Virus record (IMG/VR): IMGVR_UViG_2718218399_000002
Direction: 5' to 3' (one strand)
Source of the DNA: a virus
Lineage: Duplodnaviria > Heunggongvirae > Uroviricota > Caudoviricetes
Length of the DNA stretch: 39,647 bases
The position numbers were made by a program. The first letter of the stretch is position 1, and every line of letters begins with the position of its first letter. Positions 1-6,000 of the stretch are shown here, one piece after another.

Positions 1-3000
1 TGACGTTCTCCGAAAATACCAAGTTTAATAAGGGCAATTCGGGAAAGAATGGAATTATCATTGAGCAGATAAGGCTCATATTTCCGCATATTAATGGCAT
101 CCTCAGTAAACGCTTTATTACTGAGCAGAACACCAATATCAAAACAACCTTCAGACGTATTAACGTTTGGTAATAACGTTTCCATTATCGCGTCCTCAAC
201 AATGAATTTTGTGATGCAGTGCCTGGTGCCTCCAGGTGACGTTAACCAGTTAACAATTAACGTCGGGTTAGTTGATGCTCGTTACGCCAGTAAAAGACCG
301 CCTTACTGCTTTAACTGTTCCGCGTGCGCATAGCCGCATTCACCGCATCACAAAATTCACTTTAAAAAGGGCGGATATCCATTTCCGCCGAATCACCAGA
401 AAAGTGATAACAGAGGTTGTTGTGGCTGGGGTGTCACTTAAGCGTATGGTCAACCTGACAACCCGGTGTCCTCAACGGGGGAAGGAATAACCCCGCCATA
501 CTTACCGCCGCGCCATTTCGCGGATTGCCACAACCAGAAGCGCACGGTCGAATTAAATTTAACGACGACCTATACAGAGAGACTAACTTCGCCGTGCGCT
601 TTCGTGTTATGCCCTGACTTTTCAGGGTAAATTAACCTGTGGAAACCTGTTTTTACTGGCGCTAATCAGTTAGCGTTTCTTGCTAACCAGCGATGCGCGC
701 CAGCTTCGGTTTTAAACGTTTTACTTCTGGTATACGTCATCGCGGTAAACGTGCCGTCGTGGTTGGGGAATACTCCGCACACCAGAGATTCATTGTTGCC
801 AAGATTGAGCATATCCATGTTGACCTCATTTACCCTTAACGCCGGGTCGCGGAACTAAAAACCTGCTGCGCTGTTATACAAAGTGTTCCCGCCGTCATGT
901 TCATACGCCTCGGGCTGGCTACTTAACCCCTGACCACTGCCGGGTAACTCGAGGTATTGCCCGACGTTCTGTGGGGCGAGGTAGGGTGGTATGTAATAAA
1001 TCTAAAAGTATTTAGTTTTTCAGTCAAGGTAAATCTAGATTAATTTAAAAAAAAGGTCGGCATTGCCGACCTCAAGTAAAGGACGTGGCGGGTTATAAGT
1101 TGAACTGTACACCTTTTGCTACGGCAACAATTTTACACTCTGGTGTAAGTAAGGATGACTGATAGCGTGGATTGAGAGGGCTTAAATACACAAGCTTCCC
1201 ATCAATAACTAATTTCTTTATAGTCATAGATGGTTCATTTTTAAGCGGATCCGGAACTATTACAGCGACGATGCTGCCATTTTTATAACTTTCTCCTGGC
1301 CTTAGGATCACAGTAGCACCAACTGGGATACTCGGTGATCCTGATGGGTTATGCATTGTGTCATCAGGCATTGAAACGGCAAAATCACCTTCCTCGACAT
1401 CAAAGAATGTGGTGATTCTATCGACATTTCCCATTGTTTTCTCTCCTTTTAAGATTAGGAAAGAAATCGCCTCACCCCACGAAAGGTAGGGGATCTTGGT
1501 GCCTGAGGTACTTTGTACAAAAGATAATTCAGGAGACGATACTCCATATAGGAGATAGGACTCAGTAGTTCCTAATGCCTGGGCTAACTTACTTAGAGCT
1601 TTGCTACCTGGTTCGTTTAGATCTTTCTCCCAGTACCCTATAGTAACCCCAGTCACGCCTGAAAGCTTACCCAGTTCTACTTGGGTCAGCCCCTTATCTT
1701 TTCTAAGTCTCTTAAGCCTGAAGCCAAGGCTTTCCATCATTTTCTCCTGCAAATTGAATATAAATTATTTTAGATTGCATTGACCTAAAAAAAATTATCT
1801 TGTAATCTAAAAATACTTAGATTTGGGAGGTAAAATGCGAGTTGATGAACTTGTCCAGTTTTTTGGTTCTGTTCAGAGGGTTGCCGATTTTTATGGGATA
1901 ACCCGCGAAGCTATTTACATGTGGCGTAAGCGTCCTGGTGAAATAGTTCCGAAGGGGAGGGCTGCGGAAGCTGCTGCATACTCCAAGGGGAAATTATCTT
2001 TGAACCCAGAACTTTACAAAAAGAAGGATACCACTCAGGGCGAAGGAAAGGGGGATTCATGAAAATCAAACATGAGCACATCCGCATGGCGATCAATGCC
2101 TGGGCCTATCCGGACGGTGAGAAAGTTCCTGCAGCTGAAATAGCCCGGACTTATTTCGAGCTGGGGATGACGTTCCCGGAACTGTACGACGACAGCCATC
2201 CGGAAGCCCTGGCTCGTAATACCCAGAAAATTTTCCGTTGGCTGGATAAAGACACCCCTGATGCTGTTGAAAAAATTCAGGCTCTGTTACCGGCGATCGA
2301 AAAGGCAATGCCGCCTCTGCTGGTGGCCCGTATGCGCAGTCACAGCTCTGAATATTACCGTGAGATCGTCGAACGGAGGGATCGGCTGGTGAAAGATGTG
2401 GATGATTTTGTCGCAGCGGCGATCGCCTGGGGCACCCTGACTAACAGTGGTGGTCAGCCTGGTAATGCTGTTGTCGTGCATTGACCAACAATATTCATGC
2501 CGGATTTCTTCCGGATGTTCGAGGGTAAAGTTCGGTATCAGATGAGGTGAGTATGGCTAATGCCTGGCTCAGATTGTGGCATGACATGCCAAATGATCCC
2601 AAATGGCGAACCATTGCCAGGGTCTCAGGACAGCCAATCGCAACAGTGATGGCGGTGTATATCCACCTTCTGGTGAGTGCGTCACGAAATGTCACGACAT
2701 GTCACGGCGTGTCACTACGTGGTCACATTGATGTCACGACGGAAGATTTAGCAAGTGCGCTTGATGTGACGGAAGACGTGATTGATTCAATTTTGCATGC
2801 AATGCAGGGGCGAGTTCTGGATGGTGATCTTATTTCCGGATGGGAAAAACGCCAGGTGATGAAGGAGGATAACGGTAATGTTTCGCAAACCGCAAAATCC
2901 CCGGCAGAGCGCAAGAGAGCGCAGCGGGAGCGGGAAAGACTGCGGAAGCAGAACACTGATTGTCACGATGAGTCACGACGCGTCACGCATATGTCACGAC

Positions 3001-6000
3001 AAATCACGACAGATACAGATACAGATAAAGAATTAAACCCCACACATAACGCGCGCATGCGCGAGAGTGCTACGACCGGTGAGTTGAATGACGCGTCGTT
3101 GCAGACAGCCGAACCTGAATACCTGGACGGCCTGAGCGAACCGATCGGGAAATTTCCGATGACTGGAGTCTGGCAACCGTCGCCGGATTTTCGACAGCGG
3201 GCAGCAGTGTGGGGTATGGCTCTGCCTGAGCCTGAGTTTACACCTGCTGAGCTTGCCGCATTCCGGGATTACTGGATGGCGGAGGGGAAGGTTTTCACGC
3301 AGGTTCAGTGGGAGCAGAAATTTGCCCGTCACGTGCAGCACGTCAGGGCACAGGTAAAACCAGTCAGCAAGGGGGTAAGCCATGCAGCACCAGGTGGCAC
3401 CGCATCACGGGCAGTTCAGGAAATTCGGGCAGCACGTGAACAGTGGGAACGTGAAAACGGATTTATCAGCAACGGAAACGGCCTGGAAGCTGTGGGAACT
3501 TATGGGGGAGGTGTATTCGAACCGCTGGACCCAGAAGAACGGGGCTGCGCCGTCGAAGCTCTGGATTGCTCAGATTGGCGCGATGACTGAACAGCAAATC
3601 CGGCAGGTCTGCCGTCAGTGCATGGACCGCTGCCGGGCGGGTGAAACGTGGCCTCCGGATCTGGCTGAGTTTGTGGCGTTGATTTCGGAGAGCGGGGCAA
3701 ATCCATTTGGCCTGACGGTGGATGCCGTGATGGAGGAGTACCGTCGCTGGAGGAATGAATCCTGGCGGTACGACGGGAGTGATAAATACCCGTGGCCACA
3801 GCCGGTGCTGTACCACATTTGCCTCGAGATGCGTTCAAAGGGGATTGAGCGCCAGATGACCGAAGGGGAGTTAAAACGGCTTGTGGAAAGGCAGCTGACG
3901 AAATGGGCAAAGCATGTTGGTAATGGCCTCAGTGTTCCGCCAGTCCGGCGACAACTGGCAGCACCCAAACGCCCGCCAGGGCCAACGCCAATTGAATTGC
4001 TGAAACAGGAATATGAGCGCCGGAAGGCGGCCGGTTTTGTCTGAGTTGAGAAGTAATTTTTACCGGGAGGAAAATTTAATGGAAACCGTTTTTGACGCAC
4101 TGAAAGCACTGAAAAAAGCCTCGTCGCACGAGATTGCAGCCCGTCTTGAAATCAGCCGTGACGATGCTGTTACCGAACTCTGGAAGCTGAAGCGTCGTGG
4201 CGAAGCTGATAACAAGGGGTCGATGTGGTGGCTGACGAGTGAGGCAACTGAAGCGGCCCCAAAAACCACTGCAGAGATGCTGATTAACGCGATTGAACAG
4301 CATGGTCCTCAGTCGGCTGACGAACTGGCGTTAATGTTCGGGATTACCTCCCGCCGGGCGAATTCATCACTGGCGATGGCTGTCAGCAAAGGTCGTCTGA
4401 TTCGCGTAAATCAGGACGGTAAATATCGTTACTGCATACCGGGCGATAATTTACCGGCAGAGCCGAAAGCTGCATCGGTAACGGAAACCGATGGTAAAGC
4501 CTTTCCTCAGCCGGCAGGTGTTGCGTTACCAGTCCGGGAAGCGGAAACACAGGAAGAAATTAAAACTGAAAGTGTGGCGGTCACAGTGCAGTCACAGTCG
4601 TCGTTCATCAGAAAGCATCCGGATGGTCTGATTTTACCATCGCTGCATGTGGCTAACCGCGAGCTGCGCCGGGCAAAAGGTCAGGTTCAGAAGTGGGAGC
4701 GCTTATGCGCCGCGCTGCGGGAAATTAATAAGCATCGTGATGTCATACAGAAAATAACGACAGGAGATAACGGGTAATTTTTACAGCAGGGTGATGATAT
4801 GAAAATCAGATATCATGATTTCGGCCCCGTGTCACATATGCTTATTTCAAGTACGGTGCTGGAAACAAGAAAACATAATCACATACTGGATATGCTGCGT
4901 CTTGCTGACCCGTATCTGGTAATAAACACCAGTGGAATTTTCTTTCTGAGAAGCACTGTGTCAGGAAAAACATCGCATGTGCTTCGGGCATATAAAACAG
5001 CAGTGCGGGAGGAAGGAGAATGAGCGAGATTAACTATCAGGAGCTGCGTGTTGAGCTGGGAGCAGCAAAAAAACGCATAGAAGAGCTGGAGGCTAATCGT
5101 GTGGTGCTTGAGGTGGAAAATGAGAGGTTGAAACACGCAATGGCCGTAGCCCTTGAGCATATATCCGTCACAGATGCAGGACAGGCAGGTGTCGCTGCAA
5201 TGATTATCTATGATGCCATGTACCACAGTGAAAAAACTGACCCCTACGCTTTTCTGGCAGAATTGCGGGCGCAGGGTGTGGAGATGGTGCGCGAACATCC
5301 AGCAATCAAACTTTGCTCTTTGACGCACATATGTGACGAGTTAGTCGCAGAGCTTCGCAAAGGAGGCAACAAGTGAGTAAAACGAATCCGGGCTGGGCAA
5401 GGCCACTTATGGCGAAAAAACATCATTATTTTGCTGAAGGTGAAATAACAAGTATTTGCGGTGGGTGGATGTATTTTGGCAATGAGCGTGAGCCGGATAC
5501 ATTCGAAAGTCCAGATGATTGTAAAAAGTGTCGTAGAAAATTAAATAAGGGGGGTAAATGAGCGTAATTAAAGAAATGCCAGTGGAACGTAATGAATATG
5601 GCTGCTGGACGCATCCTGAATATGAAAAATTCTGTGATGGTCGGGAATATATTTCAACGGAAGAGTTTAACGCCTGGATGGAGAAAAATAATCTTCAGTG
5701 GGCTATCCGTAGTATGGATGAAGATGATTTTAATCTGGACGCAGATGGCCCTGATATTTCAGCATGGGAACCTGAGCGACCAGAAGGTGAGGGATGGTTT
5801 ATCGGTTCGATACATGACACCGAAGATGGTCCTGTTTGTGTATGGCTGAGAAATAAGGCCGAAGCATAAAGGCTATAAACCAACAACTAAACACTGAAAA
5901 TTTAAATCAGAAATGATTTTTATTAAATCCTTAACCGGAGGGATTCCTGCACCCTCAGAACATCAGGAGACCGCCCGAAAGGGCGGTAGTGAAAAATGAC

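What the first reader, a model, noticed from the sequence alone, without database searches (positions are those of the whole stretch)
2681..3010. Two iteron arrays inside the replication initiator gene
Six and five GTCACG-type repeats at 10-bp phasing lie within the O-like coding sequence, about 280 bp apart, the same origin-within-initiator arrangement as lambda ori but with a different repeat sequence. This marks the probable replication origin and predicts the DNA specificity of the encoded initiator.
Basis: partly seen in the sequence, partly recalled or inferred. Interest (0 to 1): 0.5.

Follow-up and report, generated by a model that had tools for sequence, protein, structure and literature searches.

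The report
Replication origin inside phage initiator gene
The repeats are real and almost certainly mark the replication origin of an E. coli O157 prophage, written into the gene of the protein that binds it; the arrangement is textbook, but this initiator family is widespread and its origin was not described in the papers I could search.

Summary
Six GTCAC(G) units (2681-2738) and five (2962-3008) lie on the + strand at 10-11 nt spacing inside gene 2553-3590. They are the only such arrays in the 39.6 kb window; simulation expects 0.007.

In 86 homologous genes, 10-nt-phased arrays sit at the same two gene offsets. The unit differs between clades (GTCACG, CGAACGC, GTAACGC, GCAACGC, GTGACGC), and both arrays of one gene carry the same unit. 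Four-fold degenerate codon positions inside the cores are nearly invariant (0.17 vs 1.67 bits), so the DNA itself is under selection.

Array 2 is followed directly by an AT-rich, purine-rich tract. G+C drops 22 points there across 70 loci; in the window this is 3009-3049, at 32% G+C. A short GC inverted repeat often follows.

The protein is not a lambda O homologue. It has a DnaD/RepA_N-like winged-helix N-domain, a disordered linker encoded by array 2 and the AT tract, and a DnaT ssDNA-binding domain. A lambda-P-like loader gene follows.

Best reading: array 2 plus the AT tract is the core origin, and array 1 is an accessory binding site. Binding and replication are inferred, not shown. I rate it a new member of a known kind.

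The parts
2553..3590 (+). Replication initiator gene (345 aa). It has a winged-helix N-domain, a basic helix, a disordered linker and a DnaT-like ssDNA-binding domain.
   Evidence: RefSeq CDS in an identical O157:H7 record. Pfam DnaT at aa 201-267. PHROG 1408/3729 'replication initiation protein'. AF2 models.
2553..2852 (+). Coding region of the N-terminal winged-helix domain (aa 1-~100), the presumed iteron-binding domain.
2681..2738 (+). Iteron array 1: six GTCAC(G) units at 10-11 nt spacing. It encodes aa 43-62, a low-confidence loop or hairpin between helices 3 and 4 of the N-domain. Proposed accessory initiator-binding site.
   Evidence: The position is conserved in 55 of 86 homologues. 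Four-fold sites in the cores are invariant. pLDDT falls to 55-67 for aa 41-60.
2901..2951 (+). Coding region of a conserved basic helix (aa 117-133, ERKRAQRERERLRKQ) just before array 2.
   Evidence: AF2 helix 117-133. R120, R125 and R127 are invariant in alignments A3/A4.
2962..3008 (+). Iteron array 2: five units (4 GTCACG plus ATCACG) at 10-11 nt spacing. It encodes aa 137-152 of the disordered linker. Proposed core initiator-binding site of the origin.
   Evidence: Present at the equivalent position in 73 of 86 homologues. Disordered in AF2.
3009..3049 (+). AT-rich, purine-rich tract, (ACAGAT)3 then AAAGAATTAAA..., 32% G+C against 54% for the gene. Proposed DNA unwinding element. It also encodes the TDTDTDKELN linker and contains the mosaic crossover between Evi-like and Rac-like sequence.
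   Evidence: The G+C dip of 0.22 directly after array 2 is conserved in 70 loci. The crossover lies within 3003-3032.
3052..3063 (.). GC-rich palindrome CGCGCATGCGCG directly after the AT tract.
   Evidence: (I15). An inverted repeat at this position is enriched across homologues: stem >=6 bp in 62% against 31% of controls, p 4e-8.
3153..3353 (+). Coding region of the DnaT-like ssDNA-binding domain (aa 201-267).
   Evidence: Pfam PF17948, 63.6 bits against a cutoff of 25. Foldseek to DnaT 6aeq/4ou6, E about 1e-5, 58% identity.
3583..4044 (+). Lambda-P-like helicase loader gene, overlapping the end of the initiator gene by 8 nt.
   Evidence: Pfam Phage_lambda_P E 3e-16. PHROG 109 'P-like helicase loader'. 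RefSeq 'replication protein P'.
1093..2484 (.). Immunity and early region upstream: cI/LexA-like repressor (1093-1737, minus strand), Cro (1835-2062, +) and YdaT/cII-like gene (2059-2484, +). Rightward early transcription would run through the origin.

Best explanation
This is the theta-replication origin of a lambdoid prophage of E. coli O157:H7, embedded in the gene of its own initiator.

Proposed mechanism. The winged-helix N-terminal domain of the 345-aa protein binds the TGTCACGA units. There is one unit per helical turn, so bound protomers line up on one face of the DNA. Array 2 (2962-3008), the adjacent 41-bp AT-rich and purine-rich tract (3009-3049) and the GC palindrome (3052-3063) form the core origin. 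Protein assembly on array 2 destabilises the AT tract. The DnaT-like C-terminal domain may then hold the exposed single strand, and with the lambda-P-like loader encoded next door it would bring in host DnaB. Array 1 (2681-2738), about 280 bp upstream and without an AT tract of its own, is an accessory binding site. It could act as a cooperative or looping enhancer, or in feedback control.

Shown here: the repeats, their conservation of position, their change of sequence between clades with both arrays of a gene matching, selection on the DNA, the AT tract, the domain folds and the modular mosaic structure.

Inferred: binding, unwinding, helicase loading and the role of array 1.
For: 1. The arrays are unique in the window and far beyond chance.

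2. In 85 homologous loci, 61% have a phased 5-mer chain starting at +100..199 and 69% at +300..399 from the start codon. Flanking 100-nt bins show 0-5%.

3. Of 86 loci, 50 have both arrays, and in 45 of those the two arrays share a 5-mer. The unit differs between clades (GTCACG, CGAACGC, GTAACGC, GCAACGC, GGAACGC, GTGACGC), with a common core NNN-ACGC.

4. In 19 GTCACG-clade genes (median 69% nt identity), four-fold degenerate third positions inside cores have entropy 0.17 bit (n=7) against 1.67 bit outside (n=22), Mann-Whitney p 4.7e-5. The codon between two cores is fully variable. Units fall in all three frames.

5. G+C drops 0.22 below the locus mean at +5..+45 nt after array 2 in 70 loci. 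The tract is always purine-rich hexamer repeats. A short inverted repeat follows more often than in controls.

6. The N-domain has a DnaD-NTD/RepA_N-like winged-helix fold. The C-domain matches DnaT's ssDNA-binding domain. A P-like loader gene follows.

7. The origin DNA encodes low-confidence loop and linker segments. The same is true of lambda O and pSK41 Rep (PMC6022878, PMC5703833).

8. The N-domain is the only constant neighbour of the arrays. YdaT-like, Cro, P-like and DnaT sequences are detectable in only 2-5 of 72 loci.

9. The mosaic crossover lies at the boundary between the iterons and the AT tract. This is as expected if the N-domain and its iterons form one specificity module.

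10. Precedents: SPP1 gp38 binds repeats of oriL inside gene 38 next to an AT-rich unwinding element (PMC5737612, PMC6316719). Lambda has four iterons and a 38-bp AT tract inside O (PMC3349717).
Against: There is no experimental evidence for binding or for origin activity.

Eight of 86 homologues show no array with my detector and 23 lack array 1. A few (L131, L141) have arrays about 550 nt upstream of the gene instead.

The AT tract in the window is short and only moderately AT-rich (32% G+C over 41 nt).

The prophage may be defective: the integrase is a pseudogene in the identical record. The origin may therefore not be in use in this strain.
Confidence: 0.8

Rival explanations
1. The arrays are operators, not an origin. 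The initiator or another regulator binds inside the transcribed gene to throttle its own expression as a roadblock, or to pair copies (handcuffing). Replication would start elsewhere.
For: Array 1 has no adjacent AT tract; only a 0.04 dip appears about 200 nt upstream of the end of array 2. Both arrays lie in the early rightward transcription unit. From general knowledge, plasmid iterons commonly serve both initiation and control.
Against: Array 2 is followed directly by a conserved AT-rich tract, and often an inverted repeat, in 70 loci. An operator does not need these, and they match lambda and SPP1 origins. No other repeat array exists in the 39.6 kb window. No DnaA box is present. A regulatory role in addition to origin function, especially for array 1, is not excluded.
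Confidence: 0.08
2. The repeats are a by-product of coding for a repetitive or low-complexity peptide, or of replication slippage, and have no function as DNA.
For: The encoded segments are a poorly ordered loop and a disordered linker. Unit number varies between alleles.
Against: The 10-11 nt period puts units in all three reading frames, so there is no peptide repeat per unit. Four-fold degenerate sites inside the cores are nearly invariant while neighbouring ones are saturated. The two arrays of a gene carry the same unit, and the unit changes between clades.
Confidence: 0.02
3. The units are bound by a different protein, either a host factor or the product of a neighbouring phage gene such as the YdaT/cII-like protein, and not by the protein encoded here.
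For: There are no binding data. The fold relative DnaD-NTD does not itself bind DNA (PMC7145576).
Against: Neighbouring genes are not conserved with the arrays. YdaT-like, Cro, P-like and DnaT sequences are detectable in 2-5 of 72 loci, while the N-domain is in 72 of 72. Downstream partners range from P-like loaders to DnaB and primase-helicases. The unit differs between clades within the same bacterial groups, which argues against one host factor. RepA_N N-domains with the same fold do bind iterons located inside their own genes (PMC5703833).
Confidence: 0.05
4. The two arrays are two separate origins, each able to start replication on its own.
For: Both arrays have similar unit numbers and the same orientation. 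SPP1 has two gp38-binding regions, oriL and oriR (PMC6316719).
Against: Only array 2 has an AT tract and inverted repeat. Array 1 is absent from 23 of 86 homologues that keep array 2. In some lineages it sits in a different loop of the domain (L149, L154, L156), which looks like an add-on.
Confidence: 0.05

Closest known systems
Bacteriophage lambda ori-lambda / O protein
   Same: The origin lies inside the initiator gene, in the part encoding the flexible linker between an N-terminal DNA-binding domain and a C-terminal domain that works with the P loader. The order is iterons, then a roughly 40-bp AT-rich tract with strand asymmetry (PMC3349717, PMC6022878), then a palindrome (the palindrome is from my own recollection of the lambda literature). 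A P-like loader gene follows. The N-domain with its iterons behaves as an exchangeable specificity module.
   Different: There is no sequence homology to lambda O (no Pfam Phage_rep_O hit). Lambda has four 18-bp iterons of dyad symmetry in one array. Here there are 6-8 bp direct units, one per helical turn, in two arrays 281 nt apart. The C-domain is DnaT-like.
Bacillus phage SPP1 replisome organiser gp38 and oriL
   Same: gp38 binds direct repeats located within its own gene, next to an AT-rich unwinding element (PMC5737612, PMC6316719). The window's N-domain matches the Pfam model built on this family end to end, though below threshold. NCBI names the homologues 'phage replisome organizer'. 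gp38 has two separate binding regions.
   Different: SPP1's second site, oriR, is about 13 kb away and not in the same gene. The hosts and partner proteins differ (G39P/G40P against P-like loader and host DnaB). Homology is only marginal at the sequence level.
RepA_N plasmid initiators (pSK41 / pTZ2162 Rep)
   Different: They are Firmicute plasmids. Their iterons are longer and semi-palindromic around an A-tract (PMC7145576). There is one array. No Pfam RepA_N hit appeared at E <= 1. Here the C-domain is DnaT-like.
Rac prophage YdaU-YdaV replication module (E. coli K-12 type, Rac-SA53)
   Same: The window's sequence from about 3003 onward is 80-100% identical to Rac-SA53 ydaU-ydaV in 30-nt windows (90% overall). 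This covers the AT tract, the palindrome, the DnaT domain and the P-like loader.
   Different: Rac YdaU has a DUF1376 N-domain. It has a different repeat (GTTCAAAC / GTTTGAAC, inverted) before the shared AT tract, and no GTCACG arrays.
Satellite phage P4 ori / crr (from my own knowledge, not checked here)
   Same: There are two clusters of short octamer 'type I iterons' bound by the initiator, phased about one per helical turn. One cluster acts as a cis-acting accessory region.
   Different: The P4 clusters are kilobases apart. The initiator (alpha) is a primase-helicase with an unrelated binding domain. The clusters are not embedded in a linker of the initiator gene in this way.

Membership tests
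Iteron-type phage/plasmid theta origin embedded in its initiator gene (functional class) | Three or more repeated short sites in a cluster, more than chance would give | tested here: met
   Six and five units. They are the only chains of four or more in the window, and simulation expects 0.007.
Iteron-type phage/plasmid theta origin embedded in its initiator gene (functional class) | AT-rich unwinding element adjacent to the repeats | tested here: met
   3009-3049 has 32% G+C against 54% for the gene. The dip of 0.22 is conserved in 70 homologous loci.
Iteron-type phage/plasmid theta origin embedded in its initiator gene (functional class) | Repeats conserved with the initiator across relatives and selected as DNA | tested here: met
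   (four-fold site entropy 0.17 against 1.67 bit).
Iteron-type phage/plasmid theta origin embedded in its initiator gene (functional class) | Initiator binds the repeats, and the fragment supports initiator-dependent replication | not testable with these tools
   Needs gel-shift or footprinting and a plasmid replication assay.
Lambda O protein family (Pfam Phage_rep_O) and ori-lambda type iterons | Sequence homology of the initiator to lambda O | tested here: not met
   The Pfam scan of the full protein returns only DnaT. At E <= 1 the N-half returns only Phage_rep_org_N.
Lambda O protein family (Pfam Phage_rep_O) and ori-lambda type iterons | 18-19 bp iterons with internal dyad symmetry, bound by dimers | tested here: not met
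   The units are 6-8 bp direct repeats spaced 10-11 nt, with no dyad within a unit.
Phage replisome organiser N-terminal domain (Pfam PF09681, SPP1 gp38 type) | Match to the family HMM at the gathering threshold | tested here: inconclusive
   15.6 bits against a cutoff of 23.3, E 0.017, but covering profile positions 1-116 of 121. PHROG replisome-organiser and DnaD-like families match at E 4.5e-8 to 9e-4.
Phage replisome organiser N-terminal domain (Pfam PF09681, SPP1 gp38 type) | Winged-helix, DnaD-NTD-like fold | tested here: met
DnaT ssDNA-binding domain (Pfam PF17948) | HMM match above threshold and matching fold | tested here: met
   63.6 bits against a cutoff of 25. Foldseek to 6aeq/4ou6, E about 1e-5, TM(target) 0.84-0.92, 58% identity.
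RepA_N plasmid initiators | Sequence membership (Pfam RepA_N) | tested here: not met
   No RepA_N hit at E <= 1. Only fold-level similarity was found.

The most novel reading that the evidence does not exclude
This may be one representative of a large, uncharacterised class of proteobacterial phage origins. In this class a winged-helix initiator reads 7-bp units of the form NNN-ACGC, and the variable triplet sets origin specificity. Arrays of these units would have been written repeatedly into different permissive loops of the initiator's own DNA-binding domain, so the same nucleotides encode a surface hairpin of the binding domain and act as its accessory binding site. That site would loop onto the core origin. 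Because up to four prophages in one E. coli genome carry the same module, one induced phage could fire the origins of co-resident, even defective, prophages.
Probability: 0.25. Interest if true: 0.6.

Novelty: new member of a known kind. Interest (0 to 1): 0.4.

Why it matters
It locates the probable origin, and predicts the recognition sequence (TGTCACGA), for a replication module found in 643 of 5,426 complete E. coli genomes, with up to four copies per genome. This includes O157:H7 prophages. The initiator is currently annotated only as 'DnaT-like ssDNA-binding domain-containing protein'.

The family-wide pattern gives a natural data set for working out how a winged-helix initiator reads its iterons. 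In that pattern the positions stay fixed, the unit changes between clades and the two arrays of a gene match.

Shared origin specificity among co-resident prophages could explain cross-activation within the O157 defective-prophage pool; this is inference.

The case also shows how a 10-nt repeat inside a coding region constrains evolution. Only in-frame changes such as 21 nt (two units) are tolerated, and gaining or losing a single unit destroys the gene.

Tried and rejected
- Lambda-O membership: no Pfam hit, so rejected.
- DnaA boxes (TTWTNCACA): none in the whole window, so there is no sign of host DnaA involvement.
- Sigma-70 promoter scan of 1700-4200: nothing inside the origin region.
- PDB sequence search with the N-domain profile: only chance-level hits. 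The fold search was needed instead.
- The IMG/VR scan returned only near-identical E. coli sequences. It was of no use for divergence but useful for allelic variation.
- Mapping protein residues that determine unit specificity from the alignment: abandoned. The loop residues that track the unit are encoded by the iterons themselves, and the unit classes are confounded with phylogeny.
- Literature searches for a prior description (GTCACG with iteron; primosomal protein with iterons; phage D3 with iterons; replisome organiser with iterons) found none in the library available. Subscription journals are largely not covered, so priority cannot be excluded.
- I did not work out which numbered O157 Sakai prophage this is.

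
Full report
**Observation**

Reading 2000-4200 shows, on the + strand, GTCACG at 2681, 2691 and 2701, GTCACT at 2711, GTCACA at 2722 and GTCACG at 2733. A second cluster has GTCACG at 2962, 2972, 2982 and 2993 and ATCACG at 3003. Spacing is 10-11 nt throughout and the consensus is TGTCACGA. The two arrays start 281 nt apart.

Eight of the 32 GTCACG sites in the window lie here. Shuffles expect 18 sites and none reached 32. Tandem Repeats Finder reports period 10 for both arrays and a period-6 (ACAGAT) repeat at 3009-3031. Chains of four or more identical 5-mers spaced 9-12 nt occur nowhere else in the 39.6 kb, and Markov simulations give 0.007 per window.

**Gene context**

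The window is 100% identical to a prophage of E. coli O157:H7. RefSeq annotates a LexA/cI-like repressor (window 1093-1737, minus strand), Cro (1835-2062), a YdaT-family gene (2059-2484), a 'DnaT-like ssDNA-binding domain-containing protein' (2553-3590) and 'replication protein P' (3583-4044).

Pfam finds only a DnaT domain (aa 201-267) in the 345-aa protein, and Phage_lambda_P in the next gene. PHROGs places the protein in 'replication initiation protein' families, with weaker matches to replisome-organiser and DnaD-like families. So the gene occupies the O position of a lambdoid early operon but is not a lambda O homologue.

A tblastn search of phage genomes shows the protein is a mosaic. 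Residues 1-151 are 86-87% identical to phages Evi, Tritos and 813R8. Residues about 159-345 are about 80% identical to Rac YdaU.

I collected homologues of the N-domain from annotated phages and from one genome per species of GTDB. The latter gave 79 loci from gamma-, beta- and alpha-proteobacterial genomes and several metagenome-assembled genomes, at 27-96% identity.

An unbiased scan for 5-mers chained at about 10 nt finds arrays at the same two gene offsets in most of them. Of 85 loci, 61% have a chain starting at +100..199 and 69% at +300..399, against 0-5% in every flanking 100-nt bin. Of 86 loci, 50 have both arrays, 23 have only array 2, 5 have only array 1 and 8 have none.

The unit differs between clades:
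- GTCACG in E. coli, Aeromonas, D3-like Pseudomonas phages, Bordetella and Serratia
- CGAACGC, GGAACGC and GTAACGC in other clades
- GCAACGC in Ralstonia phage Hennie and in Cupriavidus
- GTGACGC in further loci

All share the form NNN-ACGC. In 45 of the 50 loci with two arrays, both arrays share a 5-mer. The position stays fixed, the sequence changes between clades and the two arrays of a gene match. This pattern is what one expects of binding sites for one gene-specific protein.

**DNA or protein constraint**

The units begin in all three codon phases, so a 10-nt repeat cannot come from a peptide repeat. I compared 19 GTCACG-clade genes that align without gaps (median 69% nt identity). Four-fold degenerate third positions of conserved codons have a mean entropy of 0.17 bit inside the cores (n=7) and 1.67 bit outside (n=22), Mann-Whitney p 4.7e-5. 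The Arg codon lying between two cores is fully variable. The DNA sequence itself is under selection.

**Origin anatomy**

I anchored 70 loci on the end of array 2. G+C falls 0.22 below the locus mean at +5..+45 nt and returns to baseline by +55. There is no comparable dip after array 1.

The tract is always purine-rich hexamer repeats, (AGATAA)n, (AGATAC)n or (AGAGAA)n, encoding Asp-Lys, Asp-Thr or Glu-rich linker peptides. In the window it spans 3009-3049, with 32% G+C and 63% purine, against 54% G+C for the gene.

A short GC-rich inverted repeat follows more often than in control windows: stems of 6 bp or more in 62% against 31%, p 4e-8. In the window it is CGCGCATGCGCG at 3052-3063.

The order of iterons, a roughly 40-bp AT tract and an inverted repeat matches ori-lambda, which has four 18-bp iterons and a 38-bp AT-rich sequence inside O (PMC3349717). 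It also matches SPP1 oriL, which has direct repeats bound by gp38 inside gene 38 next to an AT-rich unwinding element (PMC5737612, PMC6316719). No DnaA box occurs anywhere in the window.

**Protein architecture**

AlphaFold models give these segments:
- a helical N-domain: H4-14, H16-25, H29-45, H63-70, H74-84, a short wing and H97-100, with pLDDT about 90 in the core
- a low-confidence hairpin or loop at aa 46-60
- a disordered stretch at aa 103-115
- a basic helix at aa 117-133
- a disordered linker to about aa 190
- a confident DnaT-like domain

Array 1 encodes aa 43-62, which is the loop. Array 2 and the AT tract encode aa 137-166, which is the linker. The origin is therefore written into structurally permissive segments. 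The same holds for lambda O, where in-frame deletions in the AT-rich region leave O active (PMC6022878). It also holds for pSK41 Rep, where the central domain encoded by the origin is a dispensable linker (PMC5703833).

**Modularity**

A sliding identity comparison shows the window is Evi-like up to about 3032 and Rac-like from about 3003. The crossover therefore lies in the shared (ACAGAT)n tract, at the boundary between the iterons and the AT tract.

Rac YdaU has a DUF1376 N-domain. It has a different inverted repeat (GTTCAAAC / GTTTGAAC) in front of the same AT tract and palindrome.

Across 72 loci with full flanks, the N-domain is always present. YdaT-like, Cro, P-like and DnaT sequences are detectable in only 2-5. 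Annotated downstream partners range from P-like loaders to DnaB and primase-helicases. The arrays therefore travel with the N-domain and with nothing else.

**Mechanism (inferred)**

N-domain protomers bind one unit per helical turn on one face of array 2. The resulting assembly stresses the adjacent AT tract. The DnaT-like domain and the P-like loader then recruit DnaB.

Array 1 has no unwinding element and is absent in about a quarter of relatives. In some lineages it lies in a different loop (L149, L154 and L156 at +65..+112). It is most simply an accessory binding site, acting as a looping enhancer or in feedback control.

Rival readings (operators only, a coding by-product, sites for another protein, two independent origins) are each contradicted by at least one of the tests above. 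A regulatory role in addition to origin function cannot be excluded.

**Novelty**

An origin inside the initiator gene is textbook. Finding it here, in a family combining a replisome-organiser/RepA_N-like N-domain with a DnaT domain, makes this a new member of a known kind.

The features that differ from the classical cases are:
- very short direct units, one per helical turn
- a second array inside the DNA-binding domain's coding region
- the family-wide NNN-ACGC unit series

I found no prior description in the searchable literature, but coverage is incomplete.

The N-domain and iteron module is present in 643 of 5,426 complete E. coli genomes, with up to four copies per genome.

Noticed in passing
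L030, L046, L059 (IMG/VR E. coli loci), array 2 region: Some E. coli alleles have gained or lost one 10-nt unit in array 2. This shifts the frame and truncates the initiator (for example '...VTTSHDR*RYR*'). A 10-nt repeat inside a gene makes single-unit slippage lethal to the protein.
   Followed up: partly
window 2705-2725 compared with L001 (phage Evi) and L092: Array 1 has six units in the window but four in Evi and most other GTCACG-clade genes. The difference is a 21-nt (two units, 7 aa, TCHGVSL) in-frame insertion. All 80 IMG/VR E. coli loci (L011-L090) and the E. albertii genome locus (L091) have six.
   Followed up: partly
window 3003-3032: The mosaic junction between Evi-like sequence (N-domain and iterons) and Rac-like sequence (AT tract, DnaT domain, P-like loader) falls in the shared (ACAGAT)n tract. 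This short repeat may serve as the recombination site between replication modules.
   Followed up: partly
L009 (Rac-SA53 ydaU) about 1955-2005: Rac YdaU (DUF1376 N-domain) has an inverted repeat GTGTTCAAACA...GTGTTTGAACA just before the same AT tract and GC palindrome as the window. It is a candidate for the Rac origin (oriJ) iterons.
   Followed up: no
L003 (phage TL-2011b) gene offsets about +146-170 and +343-390: The N-domain here is only about 15% identical to the window's over the N-terminal ~150-170 aa. The gene still carries GTAACGC units, both direct and inverted (GCGTTAC), at the two equivalent positions, followed by an AT-rich tract and the same CCCCACACATA...CGCGCG motif.
   Followed up: partly
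L149, L154, L156 (offset +65..+112); L131, L141 (offset about -550): In some lineages the first array sits in a different loop of the N-domain, between helices 2 and 3. In others an array lies about 550 nt upstream of the gene. This suggests arrays have been placed independently more than once.
   Followed up: no
many loci, 20-130 nt after array 2 (for example L105, L124, L135, L138, L147, L168): The hairpin after the AT tract often has a TGAC or TAAC loop, or the loop TCACTACGTTC, in otherwise unrelated sequences. This recurrent motif is unexplained.
   Followed up: partly
window 3066-3038, minus strand: On the minus strand, the GC palindrome followed by the T-rich complement of the AT tract scores as an intrinsic-terminator-like site. 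This is a pattern match only.
   Followed up: no
E. coli complete genomes: The N-domain and iteron module (window 2553-3010) occurs in 643 of 5,426 genomes and up to four times per genome. Co-resident prophages therefore probably share origin specificity.
   Followed up: no
window 14012-14128 (-), 6848-7022 (+), 9938-10184 (+), 10958-11130 (+): Rfam matches elsewhere in the window: an ALIL pseudoknot (the frameshift element of IS3-family insertion sequences, so an IS is probably present), sok antitoxin RNA next to hokD, three tRNA genes and the sRNA STnc100.
   Followed up: no
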